Part shown: piece by piece, positions 2,194 to 45,700 of the stretch
How positions within the stretch are numbered: position 1 is the first letter of the stretch
Layout of the letters: every line of letters starts with the position of its first letter
NCBI RefSeq assembly: GCF_004010195.1
Contig: NC_057752.1
Coordinates: 6,959,802-7,023,801, forward strand
DNA: 64,000 nt
Source of the DNA: Chiloscyllium plagiosum
Lineage: Eukaryota
Reading direction: 5' to 3'
Program-made: the position numbers and the translations under genes
Notes under the pieces: model-generated
Told to the model about the DNA's origin: nothing
Databases searched by the model: none
What the model saw: the letters and a program-made list of their open reading frames with translations, nothing else

Positions 2194-3687
2194 TTATGAA
2201 ACCAGGCAGGTATCACTGTGTTTAAGATGTCGCTTGATGCTCTCACTGGCGTTTAAATTTCTCAACTCCACGTCATCACCAGTTGTTGTGTTTTCAGGGT
2301 CTTGTTTAACCTTTGTTTTGCTTTCTTGACTGTATGTTTCCATTTTTTGTTCAGATATAGTACTTTCTACTGAATTGTGCATTTCCTCATTGGATAGATC
2401 CGTCACAAGTCGTGCAGCTTCATCAATGAGTTCTGTCATTGCCTCCTTTCTTTCAGGTACCAACAGCTCCTGTCCACCATTGGCTAGCTCTTTCCGACAC
2501 AACTCATTAGTTTCCTCCTCAATCTCAACACTTATTGATTCTCTCTCTTTGTTCTCATTCCCCCTGTACTGTGCTTGCTTTGCAAGGACATATTCTTCAT
2601 CCTGTTCTTTTATTTCATCTCCTCTTTCTCCACTTATTTCATGCTTGGGACTATCAATATAATTCTCCTTGTTCATTTGCCTCTCACTGTCTGACAAACT
2701 CTTCTGCCGTATCACTACTTTTTTAAACAGTTGCTCCAACATTTCAAATGCTCCTTTTTCCTTCCCACCAGTGTTTTGTTCAGCACCACCACCATTCTGT
2801 GTTTCTTCCCCATCTACGTGTGCTTGCCCATCAGTTACAGTTTGCTGCTTTCTCATGTCTAAATTTGAATTTGTCTCACTTCTGTATTTATTGTCCTTTT
2901 GTGTTAGACTTTCTCTTGCATTTACTTCTTCTTTAATACCCTGTTCCTCTCTTGTTCTGCTGTCCTCTCTTTCATTTACCTTATTCACCGATAAATGTAG
3001 CCCATGGTCAATTTCTTCATTCTTTACAAGATGTTCATTGTCTCGTTCTTTCTCATCTCTTTGACTCTGAGCTTCATATGCAAATTGCTTTCTTTCACCA
3101 CCTTCCATCCCATTACTCAAAAACCCTTCATTGGATATTTCCTCTTTTGTTCTATCCTCATTTCCCTCACTTTTCTCTTCATTAATTTTCCCTTTGTGTA
3201 CTGCTTCCCCTGAAGTAACTTCACTTACCTCCACTATTAACTTGTTCTGTTCTTTCTCCTTGCAGTCGTTGCTGTCCTGATATTCTGGGTCCTTTTCTTT
3301 ACTCAGCAACTCCAACTGTTCTAAAGTTTCACTTCTATAGCCTTCCAGAACTTTCTCACTATCCTGAACGAGATCATTAGATTCTTCCACATGTGTATCA
3401 TCTGCACCCTGTTGTATGAATATGTTCATAATTCCCTCTTGATCATTTCCATTGGAGATGTCTTCAATAATTTTCATACTTTGCTGTTTGTTGGATTTGG
3501 TTTCAAAGTCATCATCAACTAAGAGTTTGAACTCTATATCTTGAAGGGTTACTGCTGAGCCCTGACGTTTCTCCACACAGTGTTTCCTCATTTTGTCCGA
3601 TTTAAACTCCATTTTCTTTGCATCCTTATGTTGGAGGTTACTCTGAATATTTTTATCTGTATTCTCTATGGTAACAATTTCAGTGCC
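2194..3687 (-). CDS. LRRFIP-like gene, terminal exon: 497-aa Glu/Lys/Asn-rich low-complexity region ending in CaaX (CLVS*)
   Basis: Acceptor ttttcaacAG|GGC at 3689/3688, phase 0; 25 codons upstream of and in frame with ORF 2194..3612. Long uninterrupted acidic ORF, comparable to the acidic last exon of the long LRRFIP1 isoform. Confidence 0.85.
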   Translation of the reverse strand, partial: GTEIVTIENTDKNIQSNLQHKDAKKMEFKSDKMRKHCVEKRQGSAVTLQDIEFKLLVDDDFETKSNKQQSMKIIEDISNGNDQEGIMNIFIQQGADDTHVEESNDLVQDSEKVLEGYRSETLEQLELLSKEKDPEYQDSNDCKEKEQNKLIVEVSEVTSGEAVHKGKINEEKSEGNEDRTKEEISNEGFLSNGMEGGERKQFAYEAQSQRDEKERDNEHLVKNEEIDHGLHLSVNKVNEREDSRTREEQGIKEEVNARESLTQKDNKYRSETNSNLDMRKQQTVTDGQAHVDGEETQNGGGAEQNTGGKEKGAFEMLEQLFKKVVIRQKSLSDSERQMNKENYIDSPKHEISGERGDEIKEQDEEYVLAKQAQYRGNENKERESISVEIEEETNELCRKELANGGQELLVPERKEAMTELIDEAARLVTDLSNEEMHNSVESTISEQKMETYSQESKTKVKQDPENTTTGDDVELRNLNASESIKRHLKHSDTCLVS

Positions 3688-3783
3688 CTGTTGAAAAATA
3701 AAAAATAGTTATAGTAGATATTAGGTATATCAGTTGCAGTCATATTATAAAATTAGTTGTAATGAAATTTAAATGTGCAATGT

Positions 3784-4626
3784 TGTTATGGACCAAACCT
3801 GACCCCCTCAAAATATATTAAGAAGATTAGCTTAGATTGCCTTACAGTGTGGAAACAGGCCCTTTGGCCCAACAAGTCCACACCAACCCTCCGAAGAGTA
3901 ACCCACCCAGACCCATTTCCCTCTGACTAATGCACCTAACACTATAGGCAATTTAGCACAGCCAATTCACCTGACCTGCACATCTTTGGACTATGGGGGA
4001 ACACCGAAGCACCGGGAGGAAACCCACGCAGACACGGGGAGAAGGTAGCCTAGACCCTAACTTTTTTCTTATTTTAAAGGTAAGTGTGAGATATTGTGTT
4101 GGAGATGCAATTTGATTGGTCAAACTACTTGAAGTTAAGCAAAACACAATTTATTCAAACACTATAGTTAAAATAGAACAAAAGAAAGAAACTTGGAATA
4201 ACTTAACTCAATTGGCAAACTTAACAGAATAATAAGATTATTTTATTACTAAACAGTAATTGTTCCGATATAGTAACATCCCATAAAGACACCCTTGGCA
4301 AATGGCAAATTCAGAAAACAGAATTGTCTCACAAGCAACTAAAACATCCAGAAAAAACTCAGCAAGAGAATGTAACAGCGAAGAGAGATCCGCCTTCCAA
4401 CCCTCCTGAGACCCAGCAACAACTGCTGCTAAAAGAAAACCTAAAGATTCTGTTTCTGTGAGAGCTCAACCCCACCCATTCAGGCTGGTTCTACTGTTCC
4501 AACTTTTAAAAAAAACAAGGCTTCCCAAGCTGTTTAGTGGTTTTGGTAGACTACTATGTACCTCTGCTTTAAAACCTCTCCAAAAAAAAGGACAAAATAA
4601 CCTGTTAAAGCCACAGCATCATCACA
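3784..4626 (-). mobile_element. Solo LTR (Gypsy-like family) interrupted by a V-SINE fragment (~3828-4045)
   Basis: TGTTATGG...CATCACA termini; flanks ATGT/ATAT (4-bp TSD with one mismatch); homologous to 24116-24551 and 38081-38722. Confidence 0.7.
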
Positions 4627-5167
4627 ATATTGATGGCCAATTGCACATAACTAACATTTGTTTCTGACTGTACAAATGATCACTTACTGTCCAGTTCAGG
4701 TATCTGTCCCTATTTAGTAGCAAGTAGGTGGATGATGAGAAGGGTCAAGCCACAGACAGTACTTTCCCTCAGAGCAATACTGAAGAGCACTTTTCTCATA
4801 ATAAGGACCAGGTTAGTTTAGTTGGCTAGATTGCAAGCACACAGTTCAGAATAATGGCAACAACAGAGGCTCAGTTCCTGTTCTGGCCAAGATAGACTTG
4901 GATTCTGCCTCATTGCCTTCAGACTAAAAGGCAATGGCAAACTAACAAGAAGAAAAAAAATCCAAAGGAAACATGGCAGGATGAGACATCACAAGACTTT
5001 GAAGCAAGGACATGTCATTGGACATCTGCCATTTTTCCCCTGCAGTTTAGGTCATTGCAATACAAGAGAACAGCTATGGCGACACAGACCCCAAACTGGG
5101 CATGTGGGAAGTAGTGTGGGAACCAACAAAAAGAAAAACCTATTAGAACTTGTCTCCGCCAATCATG

Positions 5168-5263
5168 GATTCCTGAAGAAGGGCTTATGCCCGAAACATC
5201 GATTCTCCTGCTCCTTGGATGCTGCATGACCAGCTGCGCTTTTCCAGCAATACATTTTTCACT
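5168..5263 (+). mobile_element. 96-bp Penelope pLTR fragment with hammerhead-like motif, TSD AATCATG
   Basis: CTGAAGA-A-GGGC-TTAT-GCCC-GAAA-CATC at 5173-5200; direct repeats at 5161-5167 and 5264-5270. Confidence 0.75.
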
Positions 5264-5533
5264 AATCATGTCATAGATGCATCTTTGCATGACACTACAG
5301 GCAGGAGTGACTAACTCATTCTGTATGAAGGTGAAATCCCATCTTCACGCTAAGCATACCTGAATGGTGTTGTGTCCCCAAAGGAAAAATTGGGTGAGTA
5401 GTAGGGGAAGAAAAAGTAAAAGACATTTTGGTTACATCCAGAAGTTCCAAGAGTGATGATTCCATTACCAAGTGCAATTTCCCTTAGACCCCAGGCACAG
5501 CATAAAGCAAACCTTTGTTTTAATTACTCTTAC

Positions 5534-5623
5534 GTGGCTCTCCTGCCTCTCCTCCAGCTGCTCCTGCATGCAAGTAATCTTTTGCTGCAATAAGTGCTTG
5601 GCAACTTTCTCTGTCTCCAGTTC
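5534..5623 (-). CDS. LRRFIP-like gene, coding exon (30 aa, coiled coil): ELETEKVAKHLLQQKITCMQEQLEERQESH
   Basis: tcaacAG|GAA ... CAC|GTAAGA, phase 0/0. Aligns by eye with LRRFIP1 [31 protein letters not shown]. Confidence 0.85.
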
Positions 5624-5944
5624 CTGTTGATGCAATTAAGAAAACAACAATTACTCAACAACTTTCATGTCAAACTATTTCCATTTTTATTTACTGCTTC
5701 TTTGTCCTCAGAAGTGGAGGGATGACGCTGCTTGGAAAGGAATTGTTTTTGTTCCTTTTTGTATTCAACACTTCCAGGTGACACACAAGCGTAAAGTTAG
5801 TTCTATACTGTCCCAACAATGGGCATTAACGCCTACTTTCCGCAGTGCACCCTTATTCCTCCAGTGACAGGAGTCACTATTTTAATTTGTCTTATGTGTG
5901 ATGTCAGTGCTGAACTGGTAAGGCCATTGGAGTGCTAATAAAGA

Positions 5945-7370
5945 ACGTAGGACTATATGATGTAGGAGCAGGAGGCCATTCAGCCCAATGTGTCTGCTCT
6001 GCCATTCAATGAGATCATGGCTGATCCAACAATCCTCAACTCCACTTTCCTGTCTTATCCTTGTGACCGTTGATTCCTTTATTGATTAAAAATCTATACT
6101 TAATGATCCAGCTTCAACAGTCCTCCTCAGTAAAGAATTCCACAAATTTACTCCCCTCTGAGAGAAAAAAATTCCTCCTCATCTCTGTCTTAAGTGCACA
6201 ATTCTTTATTGTGAGATTATGCCATCTGGTCCTAGATTCTCCCACAAGGGGAAACAACCTTTCTGCAAGTTGTCTCTCATTTTTCTAAATTCCAATGAGT
6301 TCAGGCCCAATCTACTAAACATCTCATAAGACAGTCCCTCTGTACTTAGTATCTGGTATCAACTGAGTGAACTGCCTCAGGATTGCCTGCAATACCAGTA
6401 TATCTTTTCTTAGATAAGGGACGCAAAACTGTTCACAGATTCCAGCTGTAGACCAACCAGTGCCTTGCATAGTTATAGCAAAACCTCCCTTTTTTTTCCC
6501 ATTCATTCCATTTGCCTTCCTTAGTACCCACTGAACTTGGATGCTAGCTTTTTGTGATTCATGGATGAGGTCTTCCAAATCCTTCTGTTCTGTAGCTTTC
6601 TGCAGATTTCCTCCATTTGAATAATATTCAACTCCTCTATTATTCCTGTCAAAGTGCATAGCCTCACATTTCCCCATTTTTTTTTCATCTGCTAAGTTTT
6701 TGCCCACTCCATTAACCTGTCTATATTCCCTATGCAGAGTCTTTATGTCAGCCTCACCACTTGCCTTCCCATCTATTTTTGTGTCATCCGCTATCTTGGC
6801 TACAGTACAATCACTTTCCTCATCCAAGTCATTAATATATATTGTAAATAATTGTGGCCCCAGCATTGATCTCTGTGGCACACAGTTAGTTACAGTTTGC
6901 CAAGCTGAAAATGCATTCCCTCCGCACCCTTGTCCAAACGCTGTCATTAATTAGTTAGCTAATCCTTGATCCACGCTAATGTACCACCTCCACCACCATG
7001 GGCTCTTATCTTATAAAGTAGCCAGATATGTGGCACTTTATCAAAAGCCTTCTGAGAATCCAAATATATTACATTTACTGTTTCACCTTTATTTATTCTG
7101 CTTGTTACCACCTCAAAAGAATTCTAGTAAATTTGTCAGGCATGGCTTCCCCTTCATGAAGCTATGCTAACTCTCCTTAATCTCCATGTCTTTGTAAATG
7201 CTCTATTATTACATCCTTTATCACAGAATCTAACATTTTCCCAATAACAGACATTAAGCTAACTGTCCTACAGTTACCTTTTTTTCATGTCTCCTTCCCT
7301 TTTCAAATAAAGGTGTTACATTGGCAGTTTTCTAATTCTCTTGCATTTCTCCAGAATCTAAGGATTCTGA
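5945..7370 (-). mobile_element. Degraded CR1-clade LINE
   Basis: ORF 6324..6947: VPQRSMLGPQLFTIYINDLD, KIADDTK; 3' tail near 5945. Confidence 0.85.
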
Positions 7371-7414
7371 CTATCCCAATATAGAAGATGATTAAAATGT
7401 CATCCATGATTAAC

Positions 7415-8045
7415 ATACATAAAACACAGGAGCAAGAGTAGGCCATTCAGCCCTTCAAGGCTGCTCTGCCACTCATTGAGATCATGACTAATTTTCTGCT
7501 TCAACACCACTTTCCTGGACTTTCCTTATATCCCTTGATGTTGTTAATATGTAGAAATCTATCAATCTCAGTCTGGAACATAATCAATGACTGAGCCTCT
7601 GCAATCCTGTAGGACAGCAAATTTGAAAGATTCACCACAATCTCTCCTTAGTCTGAGAGGCTGAGTCATTTGGATCTAGAACCTTTCCCACCCAACATAG
7701 GAACATAGAAAATAGGAGCCAGGCTGTCCTTTAAGCCTGCTCTGCCATTCATTATACCAACTGCCCAGCTTAATAGCCTGTTCTTGCTTTTCCTCCATAT
7801 CCTTTGATCCCCTTCGCCCCAAGTGCTACATCCAACTCCTTCTTGAAATCATACAATGGTTCGGCCTCAACTGCTTTCTATGGTAGTGAATTCCACAGGC
7901 TTACCACTCTCTGGGTGAAGACCTTTCTCATCTCAGTCCTAAATGGTTTACCCTGTATCCTTAGACTGTGATCCTGATTATGGACTTCCCCTGGATTTGT
8001 TACTAGGGGAAGTATCTTTCTCGCATCTGCTCTGTTGATCCTCGT
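7415..8045 (-). mobile_element. Two adjacent CR1 3'-end fragments
   Basis: aacatagaaaataggagc / ggccattcagccc tails and a GAATTCCACAGG motif shared with other CR1 copies in the window. Confidence 0.7.
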
Positions 8046-8186
8046 AAAGAAAGAATGGGACAGGATTCCCAGCTTTCCATAATAAACAGCATTTTAATTA
8101 TGGTTATTGTCTTGAAGACATATTGACTCTATGGAGCTCCTTTCAATTGCAAGTAAAATTGAAAATTAAGATACAAATTATATTAC

Positions 8187-8357
8187 CTTGTGTATTTGTG
8201 TGTGTTTCCTCTGAAGTTCTGCCAGCTCCTCCTCTGTGCTCTCTAGAATGTCCCTCAGTCGCTCCACCTCATACACAAGTAAAGTCTTCTCAGTTTCCAA
8301 AAGATCAATTGACTGAACTGCATCCATGTACTTGGCTTCAAGGTCTCCATGGATGTT
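8187..8357 (-). CDS. LRRFIP-like gene, 171-nt coiled-coil exon: NIHGDLEAKYMDAVQSIDLLETEKTLLVYEVERLRDILESTEEELAELQRKHTQIHK
   Basis: tttttgtttAG|AAC ... AAG|GTAATA, phase 0/0. Gapless 57-aa alignment by eye to LRRFIP1 [57 protein letters not shown]. Confidence 0.9.
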
Positions 8358-8399
8358 CTAAACAAAAATCAATAAAACAACTGCATTCTTTCATGAGGT

Positions 8400-12652: not shown

Positions 12653-14599
12653 TTGTTGCCCAAACTCAAACTTTGTGATATCTGAGTTTTTTTTCTGAAT
12701 GACAGGGACTGAAATTAATCACCTTATATCTGTTACTGAATCCAGGATACCCAATACTCTTGAAAGACCTCAAATAGTCATACACCTACCAGATTAGCCG
12801 CTTGTTTTTCCAATAACTCGTCAACTTGTGAAATAAATAAAGAAACAAATTACTGTATGCTTATTCAAGATTACATCTTATGTGACCAAGGCATTCATTC
12901 ATATTTAGGCTTTCTCCTAGTCATTCACTTCAATTGACACAATAACTCTTCCCCTAAAGTCTCCATTTTGTTCCAATCCACAGAATTTGTGACGAGGAGG
13001 ACAATGATATCAAAATAAGATTCATCCTTCTTTCATTTATCCAGAGTTTCTATAGAGGTTACAGCTGAAGATCAAGAAAACCCTGCAGAAATGTTATTCT
13101 GTTGTGTTTAACTATGTGACAAGTTGTGCTGTATCTTTTACAAAGTTGCTAGGCCACAGCAGCCTAGTGACACAGAGTGCAGAACTATTCCTGCAAATCC
13201 AGACAAAGTATGTTTACAATCTGTGTTGGGGCATGAAGAGACAGTGAGAAGATGAACCTCTGCCACAGCAGGGGCATCAACCTGAGCTTCTCTCCCAGGG
13301 CCCTAAGGCATTGCACAAATTTGTGGGAAGAGAGTTGGTGACTTAAAACATTTTGAGGACATATGAAAGCAAAGGCACATTTGTTCAAGGAGCAATTATA
13401 TATTCTAGACGTTGCCGCCTCTTTAAAGTATTTGACTCACGAGCATCTGTCCCTTGCAATATTTACAAGTACACCAGGTAATAAATACTTTAAAGAGATA
13501 CAAGGCTATGGGGAAAGAGCAGGGGAGTGCAATTTATCAGAAAGCTCTGCTAAAGAGTTGATAGAAGCACAATAATTTCCTTCCGTGATGTAACATTCTG
13601 TGTTCCTGACTTCAACATGTTTGTTCCCCTTCAACCCATTATGGCTTGGCTTTGAGAGGCTTCTAAGCCTCACTGAGTGAGGGAATTGAATTGGCACACA
13701 ACTGAAATGGCAATTTATTGAAAGACCAGAGTCATTTCTGCAGATTATGCAGCTTCCTCATACTTTCCTTGTTAACTCCTAATGATTGAAATGGACCTAC
13801 TCTTTGAGCTGGACTTTAACCTAAGTTCAACTCAGAACAAAAGTCAGTGAATACCCCTCCTTGCTGATAAGGTCTTGATCACATGTTTGGTCAATGTCTG
13901 TTATCTGTAGCTTTGAAACTCTTTGAGAGAAAGAGAAGTGGGTGGTTCAACAACATAACTAGATAGCTAGCTAAAAATATTGCAGCTACATTTCTATCCA
14001 ACCCATGATAATCATCAATTTAATTCACTAAAATAAAACAATAAAATCGTAGAATCTTATTGCACCACAGATATCTTGTCACAACTATGCCAGCTCTTTG
14101 AATGAACCACACACCCTAGCTTTTTTCCTTACCCTACAAAGGAGAAATCTGGCACAAATTATTCAAAATTTTGAATTTTCCTTTTATTGCAAATCCATTT
14201 TCTTTTCAGAGTTGTTTTCTTTATAATAACAAAAACGTGCAGTCAACGAAATTCCAATCACAGTCGTCTTTCTGTCATTTAATATCAATCTGTACATAGA
14301 TTATTGAGCAAGTGGGAGTTATTTAGGTTCACATTAAGGTACACTTTCAGAGCCAATTATTTCAGAGAACTCAATGATCAACAGAAAGACGGCTATTAGA
14401 AATGATAACTGGATAGACTGTAATCAAATGATTTTCCCAACTTCTCAGCAGAGACAATGAAGTTAGTTATCTGTTTCAACTGAATTTTAAATTCAGACCT
14501 GACAGACAATAAGGAAGGAGACAATGCCAATGCTGTGTCTGGTCATCCTTCCCTGGCACTCAACAGCTGTGTCTTGTTGGTAGCATTTTTGCTTCTGCG

Positions 14600-14820: not shown

Positions 14821-17800
14821 AAAAATCTAGAAGTAAGAGTCGACTGATAACCATGAAACCATTGTCAATTGTCACAAAAACCCATCTGGTTCACTAATGT
14901 CCTTTAGGGAAGGAAATCTGCCATCCTTAGCTGGTCTGACTCCAGAGCCACAGCAATGTGGTTGACTCTCAACTGCCCCCTGAAATGGCCGAGCACGCCA
15001 CTCAGTTGTATGAATTGCTAGAAAGTCATAATAAAGAAGTGAAACCCGACAGACCACCTGGCATCGACCTTGGAACAGGAAAAGACAATGGCAAAAACAC
15101 AAACAGTCCTGTCGAGCATGCAGAGTCCTCCTTACCAACATCTGGGGGCTAGTGCTGAAATTGGGAGAGCTGTTTCACAGACTAGTCAAGCAACAGCCTG
15201 ACATAGTCATTCTTACCGAATCATACCTTACAGATAACTCCCCAGACACCACCATTACCATCCCTGTCCCACTGGCAGGACAGACCCAGCTGAGGTGGCA
15301 GCACAGCTGCCCTGGGAGTCTTTGATATGGGGTCCAGACCCCATGAAGTCTCATGGCTTCAGGTTAAACATGGGCAAGGAAACCTCTTACTGTCCTCCTT
15401 CGGCTATGAATCAGTACTCTTCCATGTTGAACAACACTTGGAGGAAGCACTGAGGGTGGCAAGGGTGCAAGATATACTCTGGGTCTGGGATTTCAACGTC
15501 CACCACCAAGAGTGGCTCGGCAGCAGTATTACTAATCGAGCTGGTTGGGTCCTAAAGGATATAACTGCTAGACTGGGTCTGCGGCAGGTGGTGAAGGAAC
15601 CAACAAGAGGGAAAACCATATGTGACCTCATCCTTACTAATCTGCTGGCTGCAGAAGCATCTGTCCATGACAGTATAGGTAAAAGTGGCCACTGTACTGT
15701 CCTTGTGGAGACCAAGTCCTGCCTTCACATTGAGAACACCCTCCATCGTGTTGTGTGACACTATCACTGTGCTAAATGGGACAGACTTTGAACCAATCTA
15801 GCAACTCAAGACTGAGCATCAACAGCAGCAGAATTGCACTCCAGCACAATCTGCAACCTCATGGCCTCACTCAACCATTACCATCAAGCCAGGGGATCAT
15901 CAACCCTTGTTCAATGGAGAGTGCAGGAAGGCATACCTAAAAATGAGGTGTCAACCTGGTGAAGCTACCAAACAGGACTACTTGCATGCCAAACGGCAAA
16001 AACAGCCAGTGATAGACAGAGCTAAGTGATCCCACAACCAACAGATTAGATCTAAGCTCTGCAGTCCTTCCACATCCAGTTGTGAATGGTGGTGAACAGT
16101 TAAACAACTCACTGGAGGAGGCAGCTCCACAAATATCCCCATCCTCAATGATGGAAGAGCCCAGCACATCAGTGCAAAAGATAAGGCTAATGCATTCACA
16201 ACAATCTTCAGTCAGAAGTGCCGAGTGGATGATCCATCTTGGACTACTCCAGTGGTCCCCAGATCACGGATAACAGTCTCCAGCCAAATCAATTCACTCC
16301 ACGTGATATCAAGAAACCACTGGAGGCACTGGATACTGCAAAGGCAATGGGCCCCGATAACATTCTGGCAATAGTACTGAAGACTTGTGCTCCAGAACTT
16401 GCTGCTTCCTTAGCCAAGCTCTTCCAGTACAGTTACAACACTGGCATCTACCCGACAATGTGGAAAATTGCCCAGGTATGTCCTGTACACAAAAAACAGG
16501 ACAAATCCCACCCAGCCAATTATCACCCAATCAGTCTACTCTCCATCATCAGTAAAGTGGTGGACGGGGTCATCAACAGCGCTATCAAGCAGCACCTGCT
16601 CAGTGATGCCCAGTTTGGGTTTCACCAGGGTCACTCAGCTCCTGACCTCATTACTGCCTTGGTTCAAACATGCACAAAAGAGCTGAATTCCAGAGGGGAG
16701 GCAAGAGCGACAGCCCTTGACAGCATTTGACTGAGTGTGGTATCAAGGAGCCCTGTCAAAACTGGAATCAATGGGGATCGGAGGTAAACACTCCATTGGT
16801 TAGAGTGATACCTGGCACAAAGGAAGATGGTTGTGATTGTGGAGGGTCAGTCATCTCAGGTTTAGGACATCTCTGCAGGAGCCCCTCAGGGTAGTGTCCT
16901 AGGCCCAACAATCTTCAGCTGCTTCACCAATGACCTTCCCTCTGTCATAAGATCAGAAGTGGGGATGTTCACCAATAACTGCATAGTATTCAGCACAATT
17001 CACGACTCCTCAAATACTGAAGCAGTGTGTGCATAAATACAAGATCTGGACAATATCCAAGCTTGGGCCGAAAAGTGGCAAGTAACATTTTCGCTACACA
17101 AATGCCAGGCAATGACCATCACCAATAAGAGACACTCTAACCACCACTCCTTGACATTCAACAGTATTACCATCACTGAATCCCCCACTGTCAACATTCT
17201 TGGGGTTACCATTGACCAGAAACTCAACAGGACTCACCACATAAACACAGTGGCTACAAGGACAGGTCAGAGACTAGGGATAACTCACCTCCTAACACCC
17301 CAAAGTCTGTCCACCAAATACAAGGCACAAGTCAGGAGCGTGATGGAATACTCCCCACTTGCCTGCATGAGTGCAGCTCTAACAACACTCAAGAAGCTTG
17401 ACACTATCCAGGACAAAGCAACTGGTTTGATTGGCACCACATCTACAAACATTCAATCCCTCCACCACCAGCGATCAGCACAGCAGTGTGTACTATCCAC
17501 AAGATGCACTGCAGAAATTCACCAAAGATAGTGGGCGGCACGGTGGCACAGTGGTTAGCACTGCTGCCTCACAGCGCCAGAGACCCGGGTTCAATTCCCG
17601 CCTCAGGCGACTGACTGTGTGGAGTTTGCACATTCTCCCCGTGTCTGTGTGGGTTTCCTCCGGGTGCTCCGGTTTCCTCCCACAGTCCAAAGATGTGCAG
17701 GTTAGGTGAATTGGTCATGCTAAATTGCCCCTAGTGTTAGGTATGGGTGGGTTGCGCTTCGACGAGGCAGTGTGGACTTGTTGGGTCGAAGGGCCTGTTT

Positions 17801-20038: not shown

Positions 20039-20125
20039 CTCTTGCTGCTGTTGCACCAGTTTCTTTGTACAGGCCTCTTTGGCTTCAGCAAATGAAACCC
20101 TCCTGGCATTGAATTTTGCATCTGC
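20039..20125 (-). CDS. LRRFIP-like gene, coding exon 2 (29 aa): ADAKFNARRVSFAEAKEACTKKLVQQQQE
   Basis: ctgtttctcctctAG|GCA ... GAG|GTAAC, phase 0/0. Same length as [35 protein letters not shown], about 13/29 identical by manual count. Confidence 0.9.
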
Positions 20126-24945: not shown

Positions 24946-24954
24946 ACAATAAAT

Positions 24955-35420: not shown

Positions 35421-37095
35421 TGGAAACCATAATTCTATTAGTTTTAAAATAATGATGGAAAAGGATAGACCAGATCTAAAAGCTGAAGTTCTAAATTGGA
35501 AGAAGGTTAATTTTGACAGTATTAGGCAAGAACTTTCAAAAGCTGATTGGAGGCAGATGTTCGCAGGTAAAGGAACGGCTGGAAAATGGGAAGCCTTCAG
35601 AAATGAGATAACGAGAGTCTAGAGACAGTATATTCCTGTTAGGGTGAAAGGAAAGGCTGGTATGACAAAAGAGATTGAGGGTTTGGTTAAGAAAAACAAG
35701 GAAGCATATGTCACATATAGACAACACAGATCGAATGAATCCTTAGAAGAGTTTAAAGGCAGTAGGAGTATACATAAGAGGGAAATCAGGAGGATAAAAA
35801 GGGGACATGAGATAGCTTTGGCAAATAGGGTTAAGGAAAATCCAAAGGGTTTTTACAAATACGTTAGGGACGAAAGGGTAACGAGGGAGAACAAATACGT
35901 TAGGGACGAAAGGGTAACGAGGGAGAGAATGGGGGCCCCTCAAAGATCAGCAAGGCGGCCTTTGTGTGTGTGGAGCCGCAGGAGATAGGGGAGATACTAA
36001 ACAGGTAGTTTGCATCAGTGTTCACTGTGGAAAAGGACATGGAAGATATGGAATGTAGGGAAATAGATGGAGACATTTTGAAAAATGCCCATATTACAGA
36101 GGCAGAAGTGCTGGATATCTTGAAACACCAAAAGTGGAGAAATCCCCAGGACCTGATCAGGTGTACCCTCAAACTCTGTGGGAAGCTAAGGAAATGATGG
36201 CTGAGCCCCTTACTGAGATATTTGTATCATCGATAGTCACAGGTGAGGTGCCAGAAGACGAGAGGTTGGCTAATGTGGTGCCACTGTTTAAGAAGGGTGG
36301 TAAGGACGCGCCAGGGAACTACAGACCAGTGAGCCTGACGTCAGTGGTGGGCAAGTGGCTGGAGGGAATCCTGAGGGACAGGATGTACATGTATTTGGAA
36401 AGGCAAGGACTGATTAGAGATAGTCAACATCACTTTGTGCATGGGAAGTGATGTCTCACAAACTTGATTGAGTTTTTTGAAGAAGTAACAAAGAGGATTG
36501 ATGAGGGCAGAGCGGTGGACGTGATCTATATGGACTTCAGTAAAGTTTGACAAGGTTCCCCATGGGAGACTGGTTAGCAAGGTTAGATCTCATGGAATAC
36601 AGAGAGAACTAGCCATTTGGATACAGAACTGGCTCAAAGGTAGAAGACAGAGGGTGGTGGTGATGGGTTGTTTTTCAGACTGGAAGCCTGTGACCAGTGG
36701 AGTGCCACAAGGATCGGTGCTGGGTCCACTACTTTTCGTCTTTTATATAAATGATTTGGGTATGAGCAGAAGAGTTACAGTTAGTAAGTTTGCAGATGAC
36801 ACCAAATTTGGAGGTGTAGTGGACAGTGAAGAAGGTTAACTCAGATTACAATGTGATCTTGATCAGATGGGCCAATTGGCTGAGAAGTGGCAGATGGAGT
36901 TTAACTTAGATAAATGCAAGATGCTGCATTTTGGGAAAGCAAATCTTAGCAGGACTTATACACTTAGTGGTAAGGTCCTGGGGAGTGTTGCTGAACAAAG
37001 AGACCTTGAAGTGCAGGTTCATATTTCCTTGAACGTAAAGTCGCAGGTAGACAGCAGAGTGAAGGTATTTGGTATGCTTTCTTTTATTGGTCAGG
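35421..37095 (+). mobile_element. CR1 LINE ORF2 fragment (end of APE through RT), decayed; contains a 36-bp tandem duplication at 35855-35926
   Basis: KENPKGFYKY, KSPGPD, NVVPLFKKG...NYRPVSLTSVVGK, GVPQGSVLGP, KFADDTK. Confidence 0.93.
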
Positions 37096-37217
37096 ATTTG
37101 GAGATGCCAGTATGGACTGGGGTGTACAAAGTTAAAAATCACACAACACCAGGTTATAGTTCAACAGGTTTAATTGGAAGCACACTAGCTTTCGGAGTGA
37201 CGCTCCTTCAGGTGATT
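37096..37217 (-). mobile_element. Penelope pLTR fragment of another subfamily with damaged hammerhead
   Basis: Minus strand cac-CTGA(---)AGGAGCGTCACTCC-GAAA-GCTA-gtg, an apparent 3-nt loss in CUGANGA; a diverged plus-strand copy lies at ~49370-49465. Confidence 0.6.
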
Positions 37218-38080
37218 GACAATCAGGGAATAGGTTAACAAGTGCAATTCCAGAAACTACAAGGTTATAATCTCACCATCAGGAATTAACCCCAAATGGA
37301 AGTTAATCAGTCCTGCAGTTGCAGTTAAGGAGAAGTAATAAAGTACATTTGTCTTTAAGAGTGTACAACATAACCACTTGTAGAGGCTATTACCAGTATG
37401 TGCTGCAAATATTCAAACAGACTAGTATTTATGCAACCTGCACAAGCAATGAATCATGAAATGTTGCTCTTTTATAGTCAGTAGCAAGAGGAACTTTAGT
37501 GATGGAGATTTGCACACCCTCTCACCTGGTCCTCACTATGCTCTCCTAGATCCCAATGCTCCATGATATTGACTTGGAAATCCTTAACATAGCTTTCAAA
37601 TTCCATCACTTTATCATGCAGTTGCTTATTTGCTTGCTTTGAAGACAGCTGGATTAAAGTGTGGGGCTCTTAGATTGCAGAGACAAATATCACAGATCTA
37701 TCAAATGATTGCTCCAAATTTAAACGCAGTGTTGTGGGGTGTATGCACACAAGTCTTATCCTGTATCATTTCTGGAGAGATCAAATTGCACGAATAACGT
37801 TATTAACCTTTTCCATTTTCTCTAAAAGAAACTCCCCAAATCAATAACAATGACACTGGAACAGTTGAGAAAAAAATTGCTAACCTAAAGAACAGCAATT
37901 TCTTTAATAAAATTCAACATGCACAGTGCCAATGTTCTGGCACTTGGAAGATGTAATTAGTCATATATGGGATAGAGACAGTACAGCAAAAAGAAAACAT
38001 GATACAGCCATGATTGGGTTTGCACCTCCCCTTCAAAACAGTTTTGAAATCACATACACTGCTTATGTGTATGTTAAAGT

Positions 38081-39025: not shown

Positions 39026-40350
39026 CGCTAAAGTACCTATTCGAGACGGCTGAGGGAATCCCTGATGGACTTGACCTATGGCCTCTCTTGGTTCGTCCCG
39101 CAGATCATACTCTGTGATAGTCTGGAATATAAACCTCTTAAAAACAGTTTAGTTTAAATTATTACCTTTATTTATCAATGGTATCTATGTTATTACACAA
39201 TAACATAGATACCTACAAGCCAGGTTTGAGCTAAGGTTCTAAAACAATGAGCAGAGTAGTGGCTCTTGCCCCTAAGAGCTCGCTCAGGCTACTCCCCTTA
39301 TTGCTGCAAACAAACTGGCTTTATACAGAAATTGGTATTAAAATTACAAAAACACCACATGTCCTTCATCAGATAAGCAGCAATAAAATGGCAAAAGTTT
39401 GCAGAGGAAGAGAAACGCATTGACAGGTGTGTGTACACTTGACTATTTAAGCTACATGCACATCAAAGTGGGAAACCTTGATCTAGCCAGGCCCAAATGG
39501 CTGATTGCTTTGGCGAGATAACCTTCCCTTTTAACAGTACATCATAACGAAGGATTAGTCTAAACTATGTGGAAAGGTCATGGGGTCACCTCGCTCAGCT
39601 AACATGTCCAGTATCATTGTCCTACAAAATGGCTGTTTCTTTTAAAATCATCTTAGATTCCCAGAATGCAACTTAAATTCATAACATTCCCAAATCTCGA
39701 ACTCAGGAAACAATACACACGTTCAATCCATAACAAGCCAGTGTTCACTCAAATCGGACCATAAAGGGTTAATCCTTCCACCAGCTTCCATCCTGTCTGT
39801 CTGTCTCTCGGTGTGTTTGAACCCTTCAGTTAGTGAACATAATTTACAGAAGAATGTTTTTCTCTCTCTCACTCACACATGAACATCGTCCAACTTTCAG
39901 CCTTTGTGTTTTCCTAGCCTGTAAGGGTAGTGAGACATTCACTTCCCAGAACAGTCAAGATGAGGGAGCTGAGCTTCATAAATTCAAATCTGCTCAGTGT
40001 GGTATACATGAAAATGTATCAGTATTGTTCCATTAAGTGCATATTCCACTCAGCTTATTAAATTACAAGTTCTTTTCCTATTGAGTATGAGTTTTGTTAA
40101 GAGTCTTCGATACAAACCAGCAATTTAATCCGACATCCCACTGTGAAATATGCAGGCCTCCAGTGTTAGAAGGAAGTAGTGCCACACATTCCACAAATGA
40201 ACAAATATTATCACCCTATTTACACCAATCCAGTGACACTAAGAACATATGTCCCTAATTCTTCTGCACAATAGAACAGGCACCCCACCCCGTGGCTGAG
40301 CGCTTTCCAGCATCTCCTTAGCAGATGTAAGGCTACCACCTTTCTCAAGT
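39026..40350 (-). mobile_element. Possible second ERV remnant (3' LTR ~39026-39686 plus internal fragment) splitting a Deu-SINE
   Basis: Minus strand: purine-rich stretch then TGTTAT at 39686, TATAAA-like box at ~39320, AATAAA at ~39167. Deu-SINE halves lie at ~38880-39025 and ~40350-40560. Confidence 0.4.
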
Positions 40351-41954
40351 GGAGTCTGGGGTAATCTCCTAAATCAACATCGCAAAAACAGTTTATTTTG
40401 TCATGTTAACTTGCCATTTGTAGAACCTTGCTGTGCCCAAAATGGCTGCTGTGTTTTTGACATTATAATAGTGACTACATTTCAAAATCATTGTTGAGGT
40501 GCTTTGAAACATCCTGTGGTCATGAAAGATGCAGCATATGTGCATGCAGGCCATTATTTCTTAATTTTCCCCACTCTCATGTAAACAATACAGACTGCCT
40601 GCATGTCTCTCAGAGGGGAAGGGGAGCATGAAATCCTTTCATTCACGTGACTGATGACAGCCCTGGGGATGCTCAGACAGTTTATGCATCAAGTGCTGCC
40701 AGCTGAGGCATAGCTGGGGTAAAGCTGAAGCGTTCAAGCAATCTGAATGAGAAATTATGTTCCAGCTCAGTGGAGGAAATAAGGCAGCTCCATGTAACAT
40801 CTGTGTTTACAATTTAGTCAGTCAACCTTCATGATTTATTTCTCAGCACTCCCAATATACCTGGGTCTCCACAGCCTGCTACAATTCTTTCCTAACCCAT
40901 TGGTGACTTCTCATCTGTAACATTTTGTTCCTTTCTGAAACGAATTATCCAGGTTGTATTCTTTTCCCTTAGAACTGTTCTATGGCTACAACATACAGAT
41001 ACACATTCATAGCTTTCAGTGTACTTAGTAGAATCTAAACAATATGTTGTGGAGGTGAGTAAAATTTATAGGGTAGATTGGATTATGGATGAACATCGGA
41101 ATCAATTCCAGCAAACAGTGTTTTGTGTGTACTTGGTTTAAAAATTAACTAGCAATTCTGGATGAGTAACAAATTAGCACAAAGGCTTTTGTTCAATGAA
41201 AAGTCAAGCACTTAACAGTCAGGGAACAACAGGGAATTCAATAATTAGGAAGGCCAATTCTTCCCACGTTAGGTTCTCTGGCCAGAAAGACCCTATAAAT
41301 CGCCCATGGCAGCCATCAACCTCTTATGCTCCAACCCTACCAGAATAATCGAGTTTAGATGCCACAAATCAGCCACCAAAAAGGAATGTGCCGTGTAATT
41401 TTAAAACCTAGTGAAGTGCTGCTTTTGTGTATACTGTATCATGATTACTTAATATTTGCTTGGCTGGCGCTCTATGTTTTGATCACTCCATCTGAAGATG
41501 AACTTCTACATCTTGTTTTCTTGTTTTTTTTTTTCCCTGAAGGCAAGTCCGACCCATAGTGCCATGACCTCCACCATGGTAGGGCAAGGAGACAAGGTAA
41601 ATCCACTCCAATTGGAAAGAGGATAAAAGCCCATTTTGTTGCCACCAATCTCATCCATACTCACTGTCCAGCCTACTGGCTCTTTGCCATGACAATGTGC
41701 AATTTTACATATATGTCATAATGTATAGTGATGGCAGAAGCTTCAATTTCCTTCAATCACATGATTGATGAGGAATCTCTCTTAGCCTTGTCACCTGTCA
41801 TTGGCACACAGTCACAGAGATGTACAGCATAGAAACAGACTCTTCAGTCCAACTCATCCATGTCAACCAGATATCCTAAATTAATCTAGTCCTTTTTTTT
41901 TGCAAGGTTTGTAGCTCAGGTTGAGGTTTGCTCGCTGAGCTGTAGGTTTGATAT

Positions 41955-41994
41955 CCAGACGTTTCATTACCTGGCTAGGTAACATCATCAGTAG
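41955..41994 (-). ncRNA. Minimal type-I hammerhead ribozyme motif
   Basis: cta-CTGATGA-tgttacctagccaggtaat-GAAA-CGTC-tgg. Confidence 0.72.
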
Positions 41995-42486
41995 CGACCT
42001 CCAAGTGAAGCGGAAGCTGTTGTCTCCTGCTTTCTATTTATATGTTTGTTCTGGATGGGGTCCCTAGGGTTTGTGGTGATGTCATTTCCTGTTCGTTTTC
42101 TGAGGGGTTGATAGATCTCGATACCATCTATGTGTTTGTTTATGGCGTTGTGGTTGGAGTGCCAGGCCTCTAGGAATTCTCTGGCGTTTTGTCCATGGGT
42201 TGTATTGGGTCTTTTAAGTTTGTTAGTTTTTGTTTGAGTGTTGGTGGGTTTGTATGCTACTAAGATTCCAAGGGGTCTCAGTAGTCTGGCAGACATGCCA
42301 GAGAATTCCTAGAGGCCTGGCACTCCAACCACAACGCCATAAACAAACACATAGATCTAGATACCATCTATCAACCCCTCAGAAAACGAACAGAAAATGT
42401 CATCACCACAAACCCCAGGAACCCCATCCAGAACAAACATATAAATAGAACGCAGGAGACAACAGCTTCGCTTCACTTGGAGGTCG

Positions 42487-42526
42487 CCACTGATGATGTT
42501 ACCTAGCCAGGTAATGAAACGTCTGG
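42487..42526 (+). ncRNA. Minimal type-I hammerhead ribozyme motif (predicted cleavage after GUC at 42523)
   Basis: CCA-CTGATGA-T-GTTACCT-AGCC-AGGTAAT-GAAA-CGTC-TGG: stem I CCA/UGG, 7-bp stem II, palindromic ACGU stem III. Confidence 0.78.
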
Positions 42527-43840
42527 ATATCAAACCTACAGCTCAGTGAGCAAACCTACACCCTAATCTAGTCCCATTTGCAAGCATTTGGCCCATTTCC
42601 CTCTAAACCCTTCCTATTCATATACCCATCCAGGTGCCTTTTAAATGTTGCAATTGTACCAGCCTCCACCACTTCCTCTGGCAGCTCATTCCTTAGATAT
42701 ACCAACCTTTGCGTGAAAAGGTTGCCCCTCAGGTCCCTTCTAAATCTTTCCCCTCTCACCCTAAAGCTATGCTCTCCAGTTCTGGGCTCCCCCACCACAG
42801 AGAAAAGACCTTGTCTATTTATCCTATCCATGCCCCTCATAATTTTATAAACCTCAATAAGGTCACCTCCCAGTGTCTGATGCTCTAGGGAAAACAGCCC
42901 CAGTCAATCCTCTCCTTATAGCTCAAACCCTCCAACCCTGGCAACTTCCTTGTAAATCTTTTCTGAACTCTTTCAAGTTACACAGCAGCCTTCCTGTAGC
43001 AGGGAGACCAGAATTGCACACAATATTCCAAAAGTGGCCTAACCAATGTCCGGCACAGCCACAACATGACCTCCTAACTCCTGTAATCAATACTCTGACT
43101 GATAAAGGAAAACATACTAAAAAACCATGCACTTATCTGCTCCTCTGCTGTGAGCTCTCCCACACACGTTCTTCCAAGGTCAGCTGTGAATTTCAGTGCA
43201 TGTGTCAGAAGAATATGAAGGCTGATATTCAACCTGTTTATCTGTAATTTGAATGCATTTGCTTTAGCCATTAAACTCTGGAATGGGACTGGAACCCAGA
43301 ATTTCTGACTTAAAGGCAGGGATGCTACCCACTGCACCATACGACCTCCCTAACTTCTAGCTATCTGTTCTAAATTTAACTTTTTAACAGACCCATTGTC
43401 CAACTATAAAATCAGCCTTTCGATGTTTCTTTCCAGATTGAAATCCAAGCTTCTACAGCCTTCTCTCATAACCCAGACATTCGATGATACAAATGAACAT
43501 TCTATAACCAGTCACTCCCTTGTTTCTCAGTGAGTAGAATTGAGCACAGTATTCAAGGTGTGGTCTGACCAGATCTCCACACAATTTGCTAATGACTTTT
43601 GCTGACTTCTATTCTACAATTTTGGTTTTAGGGCTCAATATTATATTTCCAGTGGAGCACAGCAGGCCAAAATAATGAACAGAAATTTGAAAATGATAAT
43701 ATGTTGAGCTGTAAGAAAGGTTATTTCCTCTGTTTGTGGAGTCAGTGGCACAGGTTAAACCTGCCAGTGAGGTAAGGGAGCAGAATCATTTGGAAAAATA
43801 TCTTCACTCAAAGAATTGTTCCAACAATGAATGTTTTGCG

Positions 43841-43884
43841 GATCAATGGTGCTGGAAGAGCACAGCAGTTCAGGCAGCATCCGA
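43841..43884 (-). mobile_element. 44-bp Penelope pLTR micro-insertion with 12-bp TSD
   Basis: GAATGTTTTGCG at 43829-43840 and 43885-43896; the insert matches the reverse complement of ~63420-63463. Confidence 0.8.
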
Positions 43885-44768
43885 GAATGTTTTGCGACAG
43901 GAAGTGACTGAGACAGAGAGCACAGTATCTTTTAATAGAAAGTCAAATAAACATTTGAAACAGGACAACAGAGACAAAGCAATGCAGTGAGATTAGCTTG
44001 GAAATGCTGTCGAAAAGAATCAGCATAAGCACAATGGGCTAAATAGACTGTGCAAACCTTCGTGGATCCTGAGTTAGGGAAACCATAAAATATTATGTCC
44101 TAGCTCTACATACAGCTGAATAATTTCTGCCTCCTGGCTAGGGAGGAATAAACCAAGGTTGCTTTGAGTCCTGATATTGTCTTTTTAAAACAGATAAACT
44201 GACTTTGCTGACATACTCCTGCAAGATGAACTTTCCAGACAGTGCCTTCAGGAGACAAGAACTTTTATTTTAAAGAATAAACACGAAGACAAAGTTGAAA
44301 AACATGACAGCCCATCACTATCTTCTCAAGGGCAACTAGGAACGGACAATAAATGCTGGCCCAACCAGCAAACCCCAGCATCCCATGAATGAACATGATC
44401 AAAAAGTGTTATTTGTATTGCTCTGGAAATTAAGTGAATTCGATTGAATTCACCTCAGATGTTTGGGGAAGAATAAAGGTGTGTTGAAGAATTTTGTTAA
44501 TAAAACAGTTTCAAATACCAAAGTCATGTTTTAACACCTCACCCATGAAATACGTTCTACTTGTAAATCCGGAGCCTGATCCCCACTTGGAACAAGTAAC
44601 ACAGGAGACACAAAACCTTTGTGAATGGCCTGAGGTCACCTCATCTGATGATAGTTCGATCGCAGCACGATCTAATTGAAGTATTCATTATAAGAACCAA
44701 TTTTGACATGTTTTAGTAAAGTTACTTTTATTCTTTAAAAATATGTCACTATAATTAGTGGGCGTTGT

Positions 44769-45090
44769 GGGCGGCACGGTGGGCAACAGGGGTTAGCACT
44801 GCTGCCTCACAGCGCCAGAGACCCGGGTTCAATTCCAGCCTCTGGCGACTCTCTGTGTGGAGTTTGCACATTCTCTCCGTGTCTGTGTGGGTTTCCTTCG
44901 GGTGCTCCGGTTTCCTCCCACAGTCCAGACAAAATGCGCAGGTCAGGTGAATGGGCCATGGTAAATTGTCCATAGTGTTAGGTGAAGGGGTAAATGTAGG
45001 GGAATGGGGTCTGGGTGGGTTACGCTTCGGAGGGTCGGTGTGGACTTGTTGGGCTGAAGGGCCTGTTTCCACACTGTAATGTAATCTAAT
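44769..45090 (+). mobile_element. Full-length V-SINE (HE1-like)
   Basis: Same structure as 17533-17826. Confidence 0.9.
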
Positions 45091-45109
45091 CATAACTATT
45101 TAAGTCACT

Positions 45110-45700
45110 CGAAAATCAAACCGCGCCTTTTACCTCTCTGATGATGATCATCATATTTTCGTCGTCGGACATTTCTCTCGACATGATCCTTCGCCGGGAA
45201 TTGCCCGGGGTCCCCATCATTCCGCCTCTATACTAAACCTCCTGTTGCTTTTCGAAGATAAATTGATCAAAGAGTTCTTCAGGACGCCAGAGGCTTTGGA
45301 GAAACTCTCCACTGAGGAGATTTACTTGGCGCGCAGTCCGGTCAGATCCATGCCTTCATTCACTACAACGTACAGCATTTCCCGTCTCTGGCCCGATTAT
45401 GCCTATTTAAATAACGAAAACAGTGACTTTAAAAGGCTCCTCGCGCAGCCACTCGAAAGGTATTTCAGGATTGCAACAGTACCAGCAGTCACGCCTGCAA
45501 CTAGGCAGGCATTTGGGTCCTAGCGCACGGAGTTTTAAAGACAGTTGGCCCCATATAATTTTTGAAAAAATACTTGCAGATTTTTGTCTAGAAATTTGAA
45601 TGGGAGAGCCAGAAGGAGGTTGCAAAACTGATTTTGCAACCCCTAGCTACACACACCCCCGCTCCCAAAATAAAACAGAGTTACAGTTCTTTCCTTCTCC
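45110..45700 (-). promoter_or_regulatory. CpG-enriched promoter / 5' UTR region of the LRRFIP-like gene
   Basis: Local excess of CpG in unique sequence compared with the CpG-depleted surroundings; TATTTAAATA at ~45404-45413. Confidence 0.6.
45134..45220 (-). CDS. LRRFIP-like gene, first coding exon (29 aa): MMGTPGNSRRRIMSREMSDDENMMIIIRE
   Basis: ATG at 45220, donor GAG|GTAAAA, CpG-rich context. Aligns by eye with LRRFIP2 [30 protein letters not shown]. Confidence 0.88.

What the first reader, a model, noticed from the sequence alone, without database searches (positions are those of the whole stretch)
2194..45220. Hidden, strongly diverged LRRFIP-family gene: candidate additional vertebrate LRRFIP paralogue next to RAB5B
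Seen: five minus-strand GT-AG exons (87, 87, 171, 90, 1494 nt), all phase 0, splice into a 642-aa ORF that starts in a CpG-rich region. Knowledge (recalled sequences): the four small exons match LRRFIP1/2 segments almost gap-free (MGTP...IARE; AEARLAAKRAARAEARE...QQKE; ...EEKYKKAM...DNEK...YQVDTLKD...; EFEREK...). Inference: these blocks are normally highly conserved, yet here the best block is under half identical. Humans have only LRRFIP1 (2q37, beside RAB17) and LRRFIP2 (3p22, same arm as RAB5A). A copy beside RAB5B (12q13 paralogon) fits a whole-genome-duplication paralogue that mammals lost.
Basis: partly seen in the sequence, partly recalled or inferred. Interest (0 to 1): 0.82.

Follow-up and report, generated by a model that had tools for sequence, protein, structure and literature searches.

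The report
Third LRRFIP gene of jawed fishes
This shark gene is a real, fast-evolving third member of the LRRFIP scaffold-protein family, shared with rays, chimaeras and bony fishes, likely born in an early vertebrate genome doubling, likely lost in land vertebrates, and predicted to hang from membranes by a lipid anchor.

Summary
The five exons are real and splice to a 642-aa protein identical to a stored NCBI model labelled 'LRRFIP1-like' (P0025): annotated but unnamed, not hidden. Exon 3 passes the Pfam LRRFIP cut-off; separate LRRFIP1 and LRRFIP2 loci exist in this genome. Relatives occur in sharks, rays, chimaera, lungfish, coelacanth, sturgeon, gar and teleosts; the skate one carries the zebrafish name si:ch1073-456m8.1. 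They form one clade (100/100), and a shark-only duplication is rejected (AU p<0.001). The gene sits in PMEL-CDK2-RAB5B-[gene]-SUOX; the human list runs RAB5B, SUOX with nothing between. No tetrapod member was listed, so the loss looks tetrapod-wide, not only mammalian. New here: the protein keeps the N-terminal helix and 87-aa coiled coil, lacks the second coiled coil, has remodelled a motif invariant from annelid to mammal, and ends in a CaaX box (79 of 86 records), like long LRRFIP1 isoforms. It likely works as a prenyl-anchored coiled-coil dimer with changed partners. Ohnologue origin likely; sister paralogue unresolved; function untested.

The parts
45134..45220 (-). Coding exon 1 (29 codons, two in-frame ATGs), homologue of the LRRFIP1/2 first coding exon
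   Evidence: 71-82% identical to 4 of 4 ray orthologues
45001..46000 (.). CpG-rich stretch around the start (likely promoter/5' region)
   Evidence: CpG observed/expected 0.83, highest of 64 one-kilobase bins
20039..20125 (-). Exon 2 (87 nt): N-terminal helix; skipped in some stored isoforms
   Evidence: same length and phase as in both other paralogues; skipped in P0019, P0021, P0022
12790..12825 (-). Remnant of a 12-codon micro-exon used in other sharks; acceptor reads AA, not AG, so likely unused here
   Evidence: absent from the cluster-1 isoforms that span this junction
8187..8357 (-). Exon 3 (171 nt): first 57 residues of the central coiled coil
   Evidence: Pfam LRRFIP 29.8 bits, cut-off 28.2; same length and phase as paralogues
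5534..5623 (-). Exon 4 (90 nt; 93 nt in the paralogues): last 30 residues of the central coiled coil
5513..5533 (-). 21-nt extension of exon 4 to an alternative donor (649-aa isoform)
   Evidence: P0023, P0018, P0019 and window sequence
2194..3687 (-). Terminal exon (497 codons plus stop): acidic, predicted disordered spacer with one amphipathic helix (about residues 456-474)
   Evidence: 24% D+E; pLDDT under 50 over most of it; helix
2194..2208 (-). CaaX box (CLVS) and stop, preceded by a weakly basic stretch: predicted prenylation site
   Evidence: Cys at -4 in 79 of 86 records of this clade
2026..2031 (-). First AATAAA after the stop, candidate polyadenylation signal
   Evidence: use not shown
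53971..59652 (-). Upstream neighbour RAB5B (coding span), about 8.8 kb from the start codon
   Evidence: paralogue label from synteny with CDK2, PMEL, SUOX

Best explanation
The window holds an intact five-exon gene that is a third jawed-vertebrate LRRFIP paralogue, likely an ohnologue of the early vertebrate genome duplications, whose protein likely works as a coiled-coil dimer tethered to a membrane by a predicted farnesylated CaaX tail. Shown: exon structure, family membership, a separate clade from sharks to teleosts, position between RAB5B and SUOX, the CaaX ending, absence of the second coiled coil. Inferred: (1) origin by whole-genome duplication, probably as the 2R sister of LRRFIP1, with which it shares the long acidic CaaX-ending last exon (about 0.8 for ohnologue, 0.6 for LRRFIP1 sister); (2) loss on the tetrapod stem (about 0.75); (3) farnesylation and membrane anchoring (about 0.75); (4) parallel homodimer through the 87-residue coiled coil (about 0.85); (5) the roughly 500-residue acidic tail is a flexible spacer that holds the helix and coiled coil away from the membrane; (6) the partner surface has changed, so Flightless-I binding is likely weakened or replaced (about 0.55).
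For: Family: Pfam cut-off passed; profile of 10 orthologue N-termini hits PDB 4H22 (LRRFIP1 coiled coil) gap-free over 82 residues, E 2.6e-12, next hit E 0.18; exon lengths and phases 87/87, 171/171, 90/93 match both paralogues. Third paralogue: LRRFIP loci on C7 and on C4 beside MLH1 fall in the LRRFIP1 (98/95) and LRRFIP2 (98/87) clades; 21 of 46 rows form the third clade at 100/100. AU rejects cartilaginous-fish copy + cartilaginous-fish LRRFIP1 (p 0.0004), + shark LRRFIP2 (p 0.0002), and + all LRRFIP1 with bony-fish copies outside (p 0.0005). NCBI names the skate protein after zebrafish si:ch1073-456m8.1. Synteny: SUOX about 52 kb downstream, CDK2 and PMEL upstream of RAB5B; the human table lists PMEL, CDK2, RAB5B, SUOX, IKZF4 in a row (PMC6262175, passage). 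Four RAB5 genes lie on C43, C5, C33, C7, three of them chromosomes with homeobox clusters; a POU6-type pair links C43 and the LRRFIP2 block of C4. Expression: 9 of 15 listed members of the skate cluster are 744-745-aa proteins on contigs of 2.5-2.9 kb, which fits spliced mRNA. Mechanism: Cys at -4 in 79 of 86 clade records, 124 of 233 LRRFIP1-class, 0 of 6 LRRFIP2-class, kept while the tail is only 36-39% identical between shark and rays; this genome's LRRFIP1 also has a CaaX-ending acidic exon. Homodimer model of the Mustelus orthologue: score 0.53, best control 0.00, runs agree in 98% of contacts, pLDDT at least 87; that mark was reached by 17 of 29 eukaryotic solved pairs and 0 of 30 single chains, and may reflect likeness to 4H22. 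Of 37 coiled-coil positions nearly invariant in the 25 other rows, the window keeps 8 of 12 core and 12 of 25 surface ones; positions 12, 14, 15, 17, 18, 21, 22 are kept in at most 5% of the 21 clade rows.
Against: All third-clade branches are long (path to outgroup 2.68 against 0.87 and 0.85) and the tree tool warns that lungfish and coelacanth are joined long branches; by raw identity these two are no closer to shark copies (0.38, 0.41) than to LRRFIP1/2 (0.37-0.46). Only one invertebrate outgroup and four LRRFIP2 rows, 143 columns. Sister group unresolved: third clade + LRRFIP2 p 0.378, + LRRFIP1 p 0.396. The last exon here starts in phase 0 straight after the coiled coil, whereas LRRFIP1 has further exons in between, and no alignable tail homology with LRRFIP1 was found beyond composition and CaaX. 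LRRFIP2 is on C4, not C5; no Hox cluster was seen on C43 (150 of 412 candidates scored). Tail-motif profiles from elasmobranchs found only the chimaera clearly (14.1 bits against 6.5 for the best of 124 LRRFIP1 controls), not bony fishes. Tetrapod absence rests on capped lists (150 of 301 rows; 120 of 266). Synteny of bony-fish copies, prenylation, localisation and Flightless-I binding were not tested. Some orthologues have charged residues in the aa positions of the CaaX box (CRVS, CQVS).
Confidence: 0.72

Rival explanations
1. Same gene history, but the protein still binds Flightless-I (or heterodimerises with LRRFIP1/2) and serves to recruit or sequester that complex at membranes.
For: [quoted passage not shown]
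Against: The longest invariant run (positions 12-24) is remodelled clade-wide, with a basic-to-acidic change at position 12; only 11 of 27 invariant helix residues are kept. The binding residues on the LRRFIP side were not given in the passages read.
Confidence: 0.35
2. A single-gene or segmental duplicate of LRRFIP1 in the jawed-vertebrate stem (or an older duplicate) that landed beside RAB5B, not a whole-genome-duplication product.
For: Tree cannot place the clade; it resembles one LRRFIP1 isoform in layout; immediate neighbours are not paralogous to those of the other two loci as far as tested (MLH1 beside LRRFIP2).
Against: Introns are kept at homologous places, so not a retrocopy; C43, C7 and the C4 block share paralogue families (RAB5, POU6-type); each paralogue has cartilaginous and bony members.
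Confidence: 0.13
3. A cartilaginous-fish-only duplicate; the grouping with bony-fish proteins is long-branch attraction.
For: Long branches throughout; lungfish and coelacanth identities are ambiguous.
Against: AU rejections; ray-finned copies are closer to shark copies (0.31-0.33) than to LRRFIP1/2 (0.25-0.32) despite greater divergence, and 10 shared derived columns were found; shared compact layout: SRRGS segment in 0 of 86 and second coiled-coil motif in 0 of 86; NCBI's zebrafish name on the skate gene.
Confidence: 0.05
4. A decaying pseudogene or a chance chain of exons.
For: High divergence; one micro-exon has lost its acceptor.
Against: Open 642-aa frame; exons 1-4 60-86% identical to rays while the tail is 36-39%; spliced-length skate contigs; chance test.
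Confidence: 0.02

Closest known systems
LRRFIP1 (GCF2/TRIP/FLAP), long isoform
   Same: N-terminal helix, central 87-residue dimerising coiled coil (PDB 4H22 match), same intron positions and phases, long acidic last exon ending in CaaX.
   Different: 41% identity over the blocks; no SRRGS exons; no short isoform with a second coiled coil found; no lysine-rich motif of the mammalian type (best 6 K/R in 12 residues against 9 in two mammal-type LRRFIP1); about three times longer branch.
LRRFIP2
   Same: Helix and central coiled coil, intron positions.
   Different: 37% identity; LRRFIP2 has a second coiled coil and no CaaX in 6 of 6 stored class members; lies beside MLH1 on C4.
Zebrafish si:ch1073-456m8.1 and fish 'LRRFIP1/2-like' gene models
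   Same: Likely the same gene: NCBI gives this name to the skate orthologue; gar, sturgeon and teleost proteins join the clade and end in CaaX.
   Different: The zebrafish sequence itself was not retrieved; teleost proteins are shorter (about 270-440 aa) and their helix exon is further eroded. No paper found under this name.
Ohnologues kept in fishes and lost in tetrapods or mammals (general class, recalled)
   Same: Fast-evolving copy on the small 12q13-type chromosome, missing at the matching human position.
   Different: This family member has not been described in the papers searched.

Membership tests
LRRFIP family (Pfam PF09738) | Pfam LRRFIP score over the curated cut-off | tested here: met
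   exon 3 alone 29.8 bits, cut-off 28.2; in the genome search the same exon scored 26.2, under the cut-off
LRRFIP family (Pfam PF09738) | N-terminal helix | tested here: met
   exon 2, 87 nt, 41-45% identical, gap-free; helical, pLDDT 83-90; 11 of 27 invariant residues kept
LRRFIP family (Pfam PF09738) | Central 87-residue coiled coil | tested here: met
   exons 3+4 = 87 residues; 4H22 match E 2.6e-12; heptad register kept
LRRFIP family (Pfam PF09738) | Homodimerisation through that coiled coil | tested here: inconclusive
   model supports it for an orthologue (0.53, best control 0.00) but may reflect the solved relative
LRRFIP family (Pfam PF09738) | Binding to the Flightless-I LRR domain | not testable with these tools
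   no Flightless-I protein was at hand; invariant motif remodelled
LRRFIP1 orthologue | Nests in the LRRFIP1 clade | tested here: not met
   the C7 locus is the orthologue
LRRFIP2 orthologue | Nests in the LRRFIP2 clade, next to MLH1, second coiled coil | tested here: not met
Ohnologue of the vertebrate genome duplications | Duplication before the cartilaginous/bony fish split | tested here: met
   clades 1 and 3 hold both groups; clade 2 holds the shark locus, a bird and two unnamed rows
Ohnologue of the vertebrate genome duplications | Duplication after the invertebrate split | tested here: inconclusive
   one annelid outgroup, root unresolved (65/10)
Ohnologue of the vertebrate genome duplications | Paralogues on paralogous chromosome segments | tested here: met
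   RAB5 on C43 and C7, POU6-type on C43 and C4, human 12q13 gene order; few families tested, and LRRFIP2 is off the C5 Hox chromosome
CaaX-prenylated proteins | Conserved Cys four residues from the C-terminus with X = Ser/Ala | tested here: met
   79 of 86 stored clade records, many redundant isoforms
CaaX-prenylated proteins | Actual farnesylation and membrane location | not testable with these tools
   needs labelling and imaging

The most novel reading that the evidence does not exclude
A third vertebrate LRRFIP, lost when tetrapods arose, that gave up the Flightless-I-binding motif conserved from annelids to mammals and exists only as a prenylated membrane tether (CaaX anchor, amphipathic helix, an acidic FFAT-like motif in many orthologues); it exposes an overlooked membrane-anchored job of the long LRRFIP1 isoform, whose tail is described only as nucleic-acid binding, and zebrafish offers a ready knockout.
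Probability: 0.2. Interest if true: 0.72.

Novelty: new member of a known kind. Interest (0 to 1): 0.5.

Why it matters
It turns a two-gene vertebrate family into a three-gene one and pins the place of loss (between RAB5B and SUOX). Databases mislabel these proteins as LRRFIP1, LRRFIP2, golgin-like or trichohyalin-like, which can mislead fish immunity and expression studies. The paralogue is a natural deletion experiment: it keeps helix, coiled coil and CaaX and drops the rest, pointing to a conserved membrane-anchored role also for long LRRFIP1 isoforms. It is not a new kind of system: fish-retained, tetrapod-lost ohnologues are a familiar class, and the gene model already exists.

Tried and rejected
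Sequencing runs: no RNA holder listed; no reads were laid on the locus, so junction evidence in this species stays open. Papers: 'si ch1073-456m8.1' and 'ch1073-456m8.1' 0 papers; 'LRRFIP3' 1 paper, a passing mention in a mammalian inflammasome discussion that I read as a slip for LRRFIP2; LRRFIP1+LRRFIP2+paralog+shark 9 listings, none about a third paralogue by title or abstract start; LRRFIP with phylogeny/teleost terms, 25 of 4,432 listed, none on this; LRRFIP1+farnesylated+CaaX 0, LRRFIP1+prenylat+farnesyl 1 and LRRFIP1+CAAX 5 unrelated listings. A chemical-proteomics report of LRRFIP1 farnesylation is recalled only; it was not held, nor was the 4H22 paper. Most subscription papers and all supplements were not searched. 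Earlier scan findings: nothing. Tail-motif profiles did not support bony-fish orthology or an FFAT-like motif statistically, and that motif is degenerate in the window's own protein. NIF, RAMP and BAR searches gave no clear extra paralogue on C43 (BAR hits on C43 and C4 were under the cut-off). Atlas searches only returned LRRFIP-labelled clusters. dN/dS was not computed: only proteins of orthologues were held. Tree rows changed before building: P0084 dropped (anchor failed), P0091 cut to one block, an insertion in the annelid row left out. Retrocopy, pseudogene and mis-assembled duplicate of LRRFIP1/2 were rejected on introns, open frame and 37-41% identity.


Full report
Observation. The five minus-strand exons exist at 45220-45134, 20125-20039, 8357-8187, 5623-5534 and 3687-2194 with canonical splice sites, all phase 0, and give a 642-residue protein ending CLVS. 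The internal exons stand far above all same-length candidates in the window when scored against this genome's own LRRFIP exons (59 vs 11 of 112; 103 vs -4 of 30; 53 vs 0 of 98). The start lies in the most CpG-rich kilobase of 64. The product is identical to stored model P0025, labelled LRRFIP1-like isoform X2 in a bamboo shark, so the gene is annotated, though under a borrowed name. Stored isoforms skip exon 2 or extend exon 4 by 21 nt; a micro-exon used by other sharks survives at 12825-12790 with an AA acceptor.

Family. Exon 3 passes the Pfam LRRFIP cut-off (29.8 vs 28.2), though it fell just under it in the genome-wide scan (26.2). A profile of ten orthologue N-termini matches the LRRFIP1 coiled-coil structure 4H22 without gaps (E 2.6e-12). 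Exon lengths and phases equal those of the two other paralogues, 87, 171 and 90 against 93 nt. Papers describe LRRFIP1/2 as sharing a short N-terminal helix and a central 87-residue coiled coil needed for dimerisation and Flightless-I binding (PMC13712786, section 8 and passages; PMC6406849, passages; bioRxiv 10.64898/2026.06.02.729301, section 10 and passages). Exon 2 and exons 3+4 are these two parts.

A third paralogue. G000 has two further LRRFIP loci, on C7 and on C4 beside MLH1; they are 72% identical to each other and 41% and 37% to this gene. Searches found relatives in sharks and rays, and, by profile over 1.84 billion representatives (301 hits, 150 listed), in chimaera, lungfish, coelacanth, sturgeon, gar and teleosts (names). 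NCBI names the skate protein after zebrafish si:ch1073-456m8.1. A 46-row, 143-column tree gave three clades: LRRFIP1 (17 rows, 98/95, holding C7), LRRFIP2 (4 rows, 98/87, holding C4) and the third (21 rows, 100/100, holding the window). AU tests reject a cartilaginous-fish duplicate of LRRFIP1 (p 0.0004) or LRRFIP2 (p 0.0002) and separate origins in sharks and bony fishes (p 0.0005). Against: branches are about three times longer, lungfish and coelacanth are no closer to shark copies than to LRRFIP1/2 in raw identity, there is one outgroup, and the sister group is open (p 0.378 and 0.396). Independent of the tree, none of 86 clade records has the SRRGS segment (195 of 233 LRRFIP1-class) or the second coiled-coil motif (55 of 233; 3 of 6 LRRFIP2-class); these records include many redundant isoforms.

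Synteny and loss. On C43 the order is PMEL (opposite strand), CDK2, RAB5B, this gene, SUOX (249 of 1303 candidate frames in 200 kb of flanks were scanned). The human deletion table lists PMEL, CDK2, RAB5B, SUOX, IKZF4 consecutively (PMC6262175, passage; also PMC12652976, passages), so the human interval lacks the gene. Four RAB5 genes lie on C43, C5, C33 and C7; C5, C33 and C7 carry homeobox clusters (the labels HoxA, B, D are my inference), and a near-identical POU6-type homeobox pair lies 4.3 Mb from this gene and 3.9 Mb from LRRFIP2 (family label recalled). LRRFIP2 is thus on a block moved off the C5 chromosome; in chicken it flanks the TRG locus (PMC7349638, passage). Gnathostome Hox clusters pair as A/B and C/D (PMC10972751, figure-legend passage), which would make a 12q13-type copy the 2R sister of LRRFIP1; that fits the shared CaaX exon but is inference. 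No tetrapod protein among the named clade members, and every named tetrapod hit among the 120 of 266 listed carries an LRRFIP1 label; none of those proteins scored best with the third-clade profile. Loss on the tetrapod stem is likely, not proven.

Expression. Nine of 15 listed members of the skate cluster are 744-745-residue proteins on 2.5-2.9 kb contigs; a gene with introns as here fits such contigs only as spliced mRNA (inference). Exons 1-4 are 60-86% identical between the window and four rays, the tail 36-39%. Junction reads for this species were not obtained.

How it likely works. The model shows one confident helix over about residues 20-160 and a low-confidence tail with a short helix near 458-480 (on the 96%-identical P0001). 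The coiled coil of the Mustelus orthologue folds as an in-register parallel dimer (0.53, best of 3 controls 0.00, 98% contact agreement, pLDDT at least 87; the mark was reached by 17 of 29 eukaryotic solved pairs and 0 of 30 single chains; may echo 4H22). Cys at -4 is kept in 79 of 86 clade records, the seven exceptions looking like fragments, and in 124 of 233 LRRFIP1-class records, 0 of 6 LRRFIP2-class; this genome's LRRFIP1 has such an exon too. By established CaaX rules (my knowledge) X = Ser predicts farnesylation. So the protein is likely a membrane-anchored dimer whose helix and coiled coil are held out on an acidic flexible spacer. The run that is invariant from annelid to mammal in the coiled coil is remodelled across the clade (seven positions kept in at most 5% of rows), and the mammalian lysine-rich nucleic-acid motif is absent, so partners have likely changed; retained Flightless-I binding remains the main rival. 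An amphipathic helix is the top-moment segment in 8 of 9 tails examined, and an acidic FFAT-like motif is visible by eye in many orthologues but degenerate here; profile tests gave these little support outside cartilaginous fishes, so they are leads only.

Novelty. No paper on a third LRRFIP was found in the searches named under Tried and rejected, but the gene is in databases under misleading names. It is a new member of a known family and of a known class of fish-retained ohnologues. Interest 0.5: solid, tidy and testable in zebrafish, not a new kind of system.

Noticed in passing
G000 C7:9.23 Mb (L041), with C43, C5, C33: Four RAB5 genes; the C7 copy looks like a fourth RAB5 ohnologue that humans lack (three human paralogues recalled).
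   Followed up: partly
P0060-P0065, P0067-P0070 and similar: Proteins with 4-10 tandem repeats of the LRRFIP coiled-coil exons; one is a catfish protein labelled myosin-6-like. Likely an LRRFIP1-derived lineage expansion.
   Followed up: partly
long LRRFIP1 isoforms (e.g. P0071, P0274; L097:466-1137): They end in a conserved CaaX box from sharks to mammals, not mentioned in the review passages read.
   Followed up: partly
L027 (just downstream of the window's left end): Broken retroelement-like pol remains (RNase H and integrase Pfam hits) between this gene and SUOX.
   Followed up: no
L012 (C22:24.95 Mb): A second copy of one LRRFIP2 exon region, 98.5% identical over 2.7 kb to C4; segmental duplicate or assembly artefact.
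   Followed up: partly
C7:32.26-32.45 Mb and C4:105.72-105.98 Mb: LRRFIP1 and LRRFIP2 exons are split between strands, suggesting local mis-orientation in the assembly.
   Followed up: no
window 12790-12825: Micro-exon with an AA acceptor, apparently silenced in this lineage but used in other sharks and rays.
   Followed up: yes
window 758-1734, 15294-17531, 35623-37238: LINE-type reverse-transcriptase remnants in introns and downstream, recognised from recalled motifs in the open frames.
   Followed up: no
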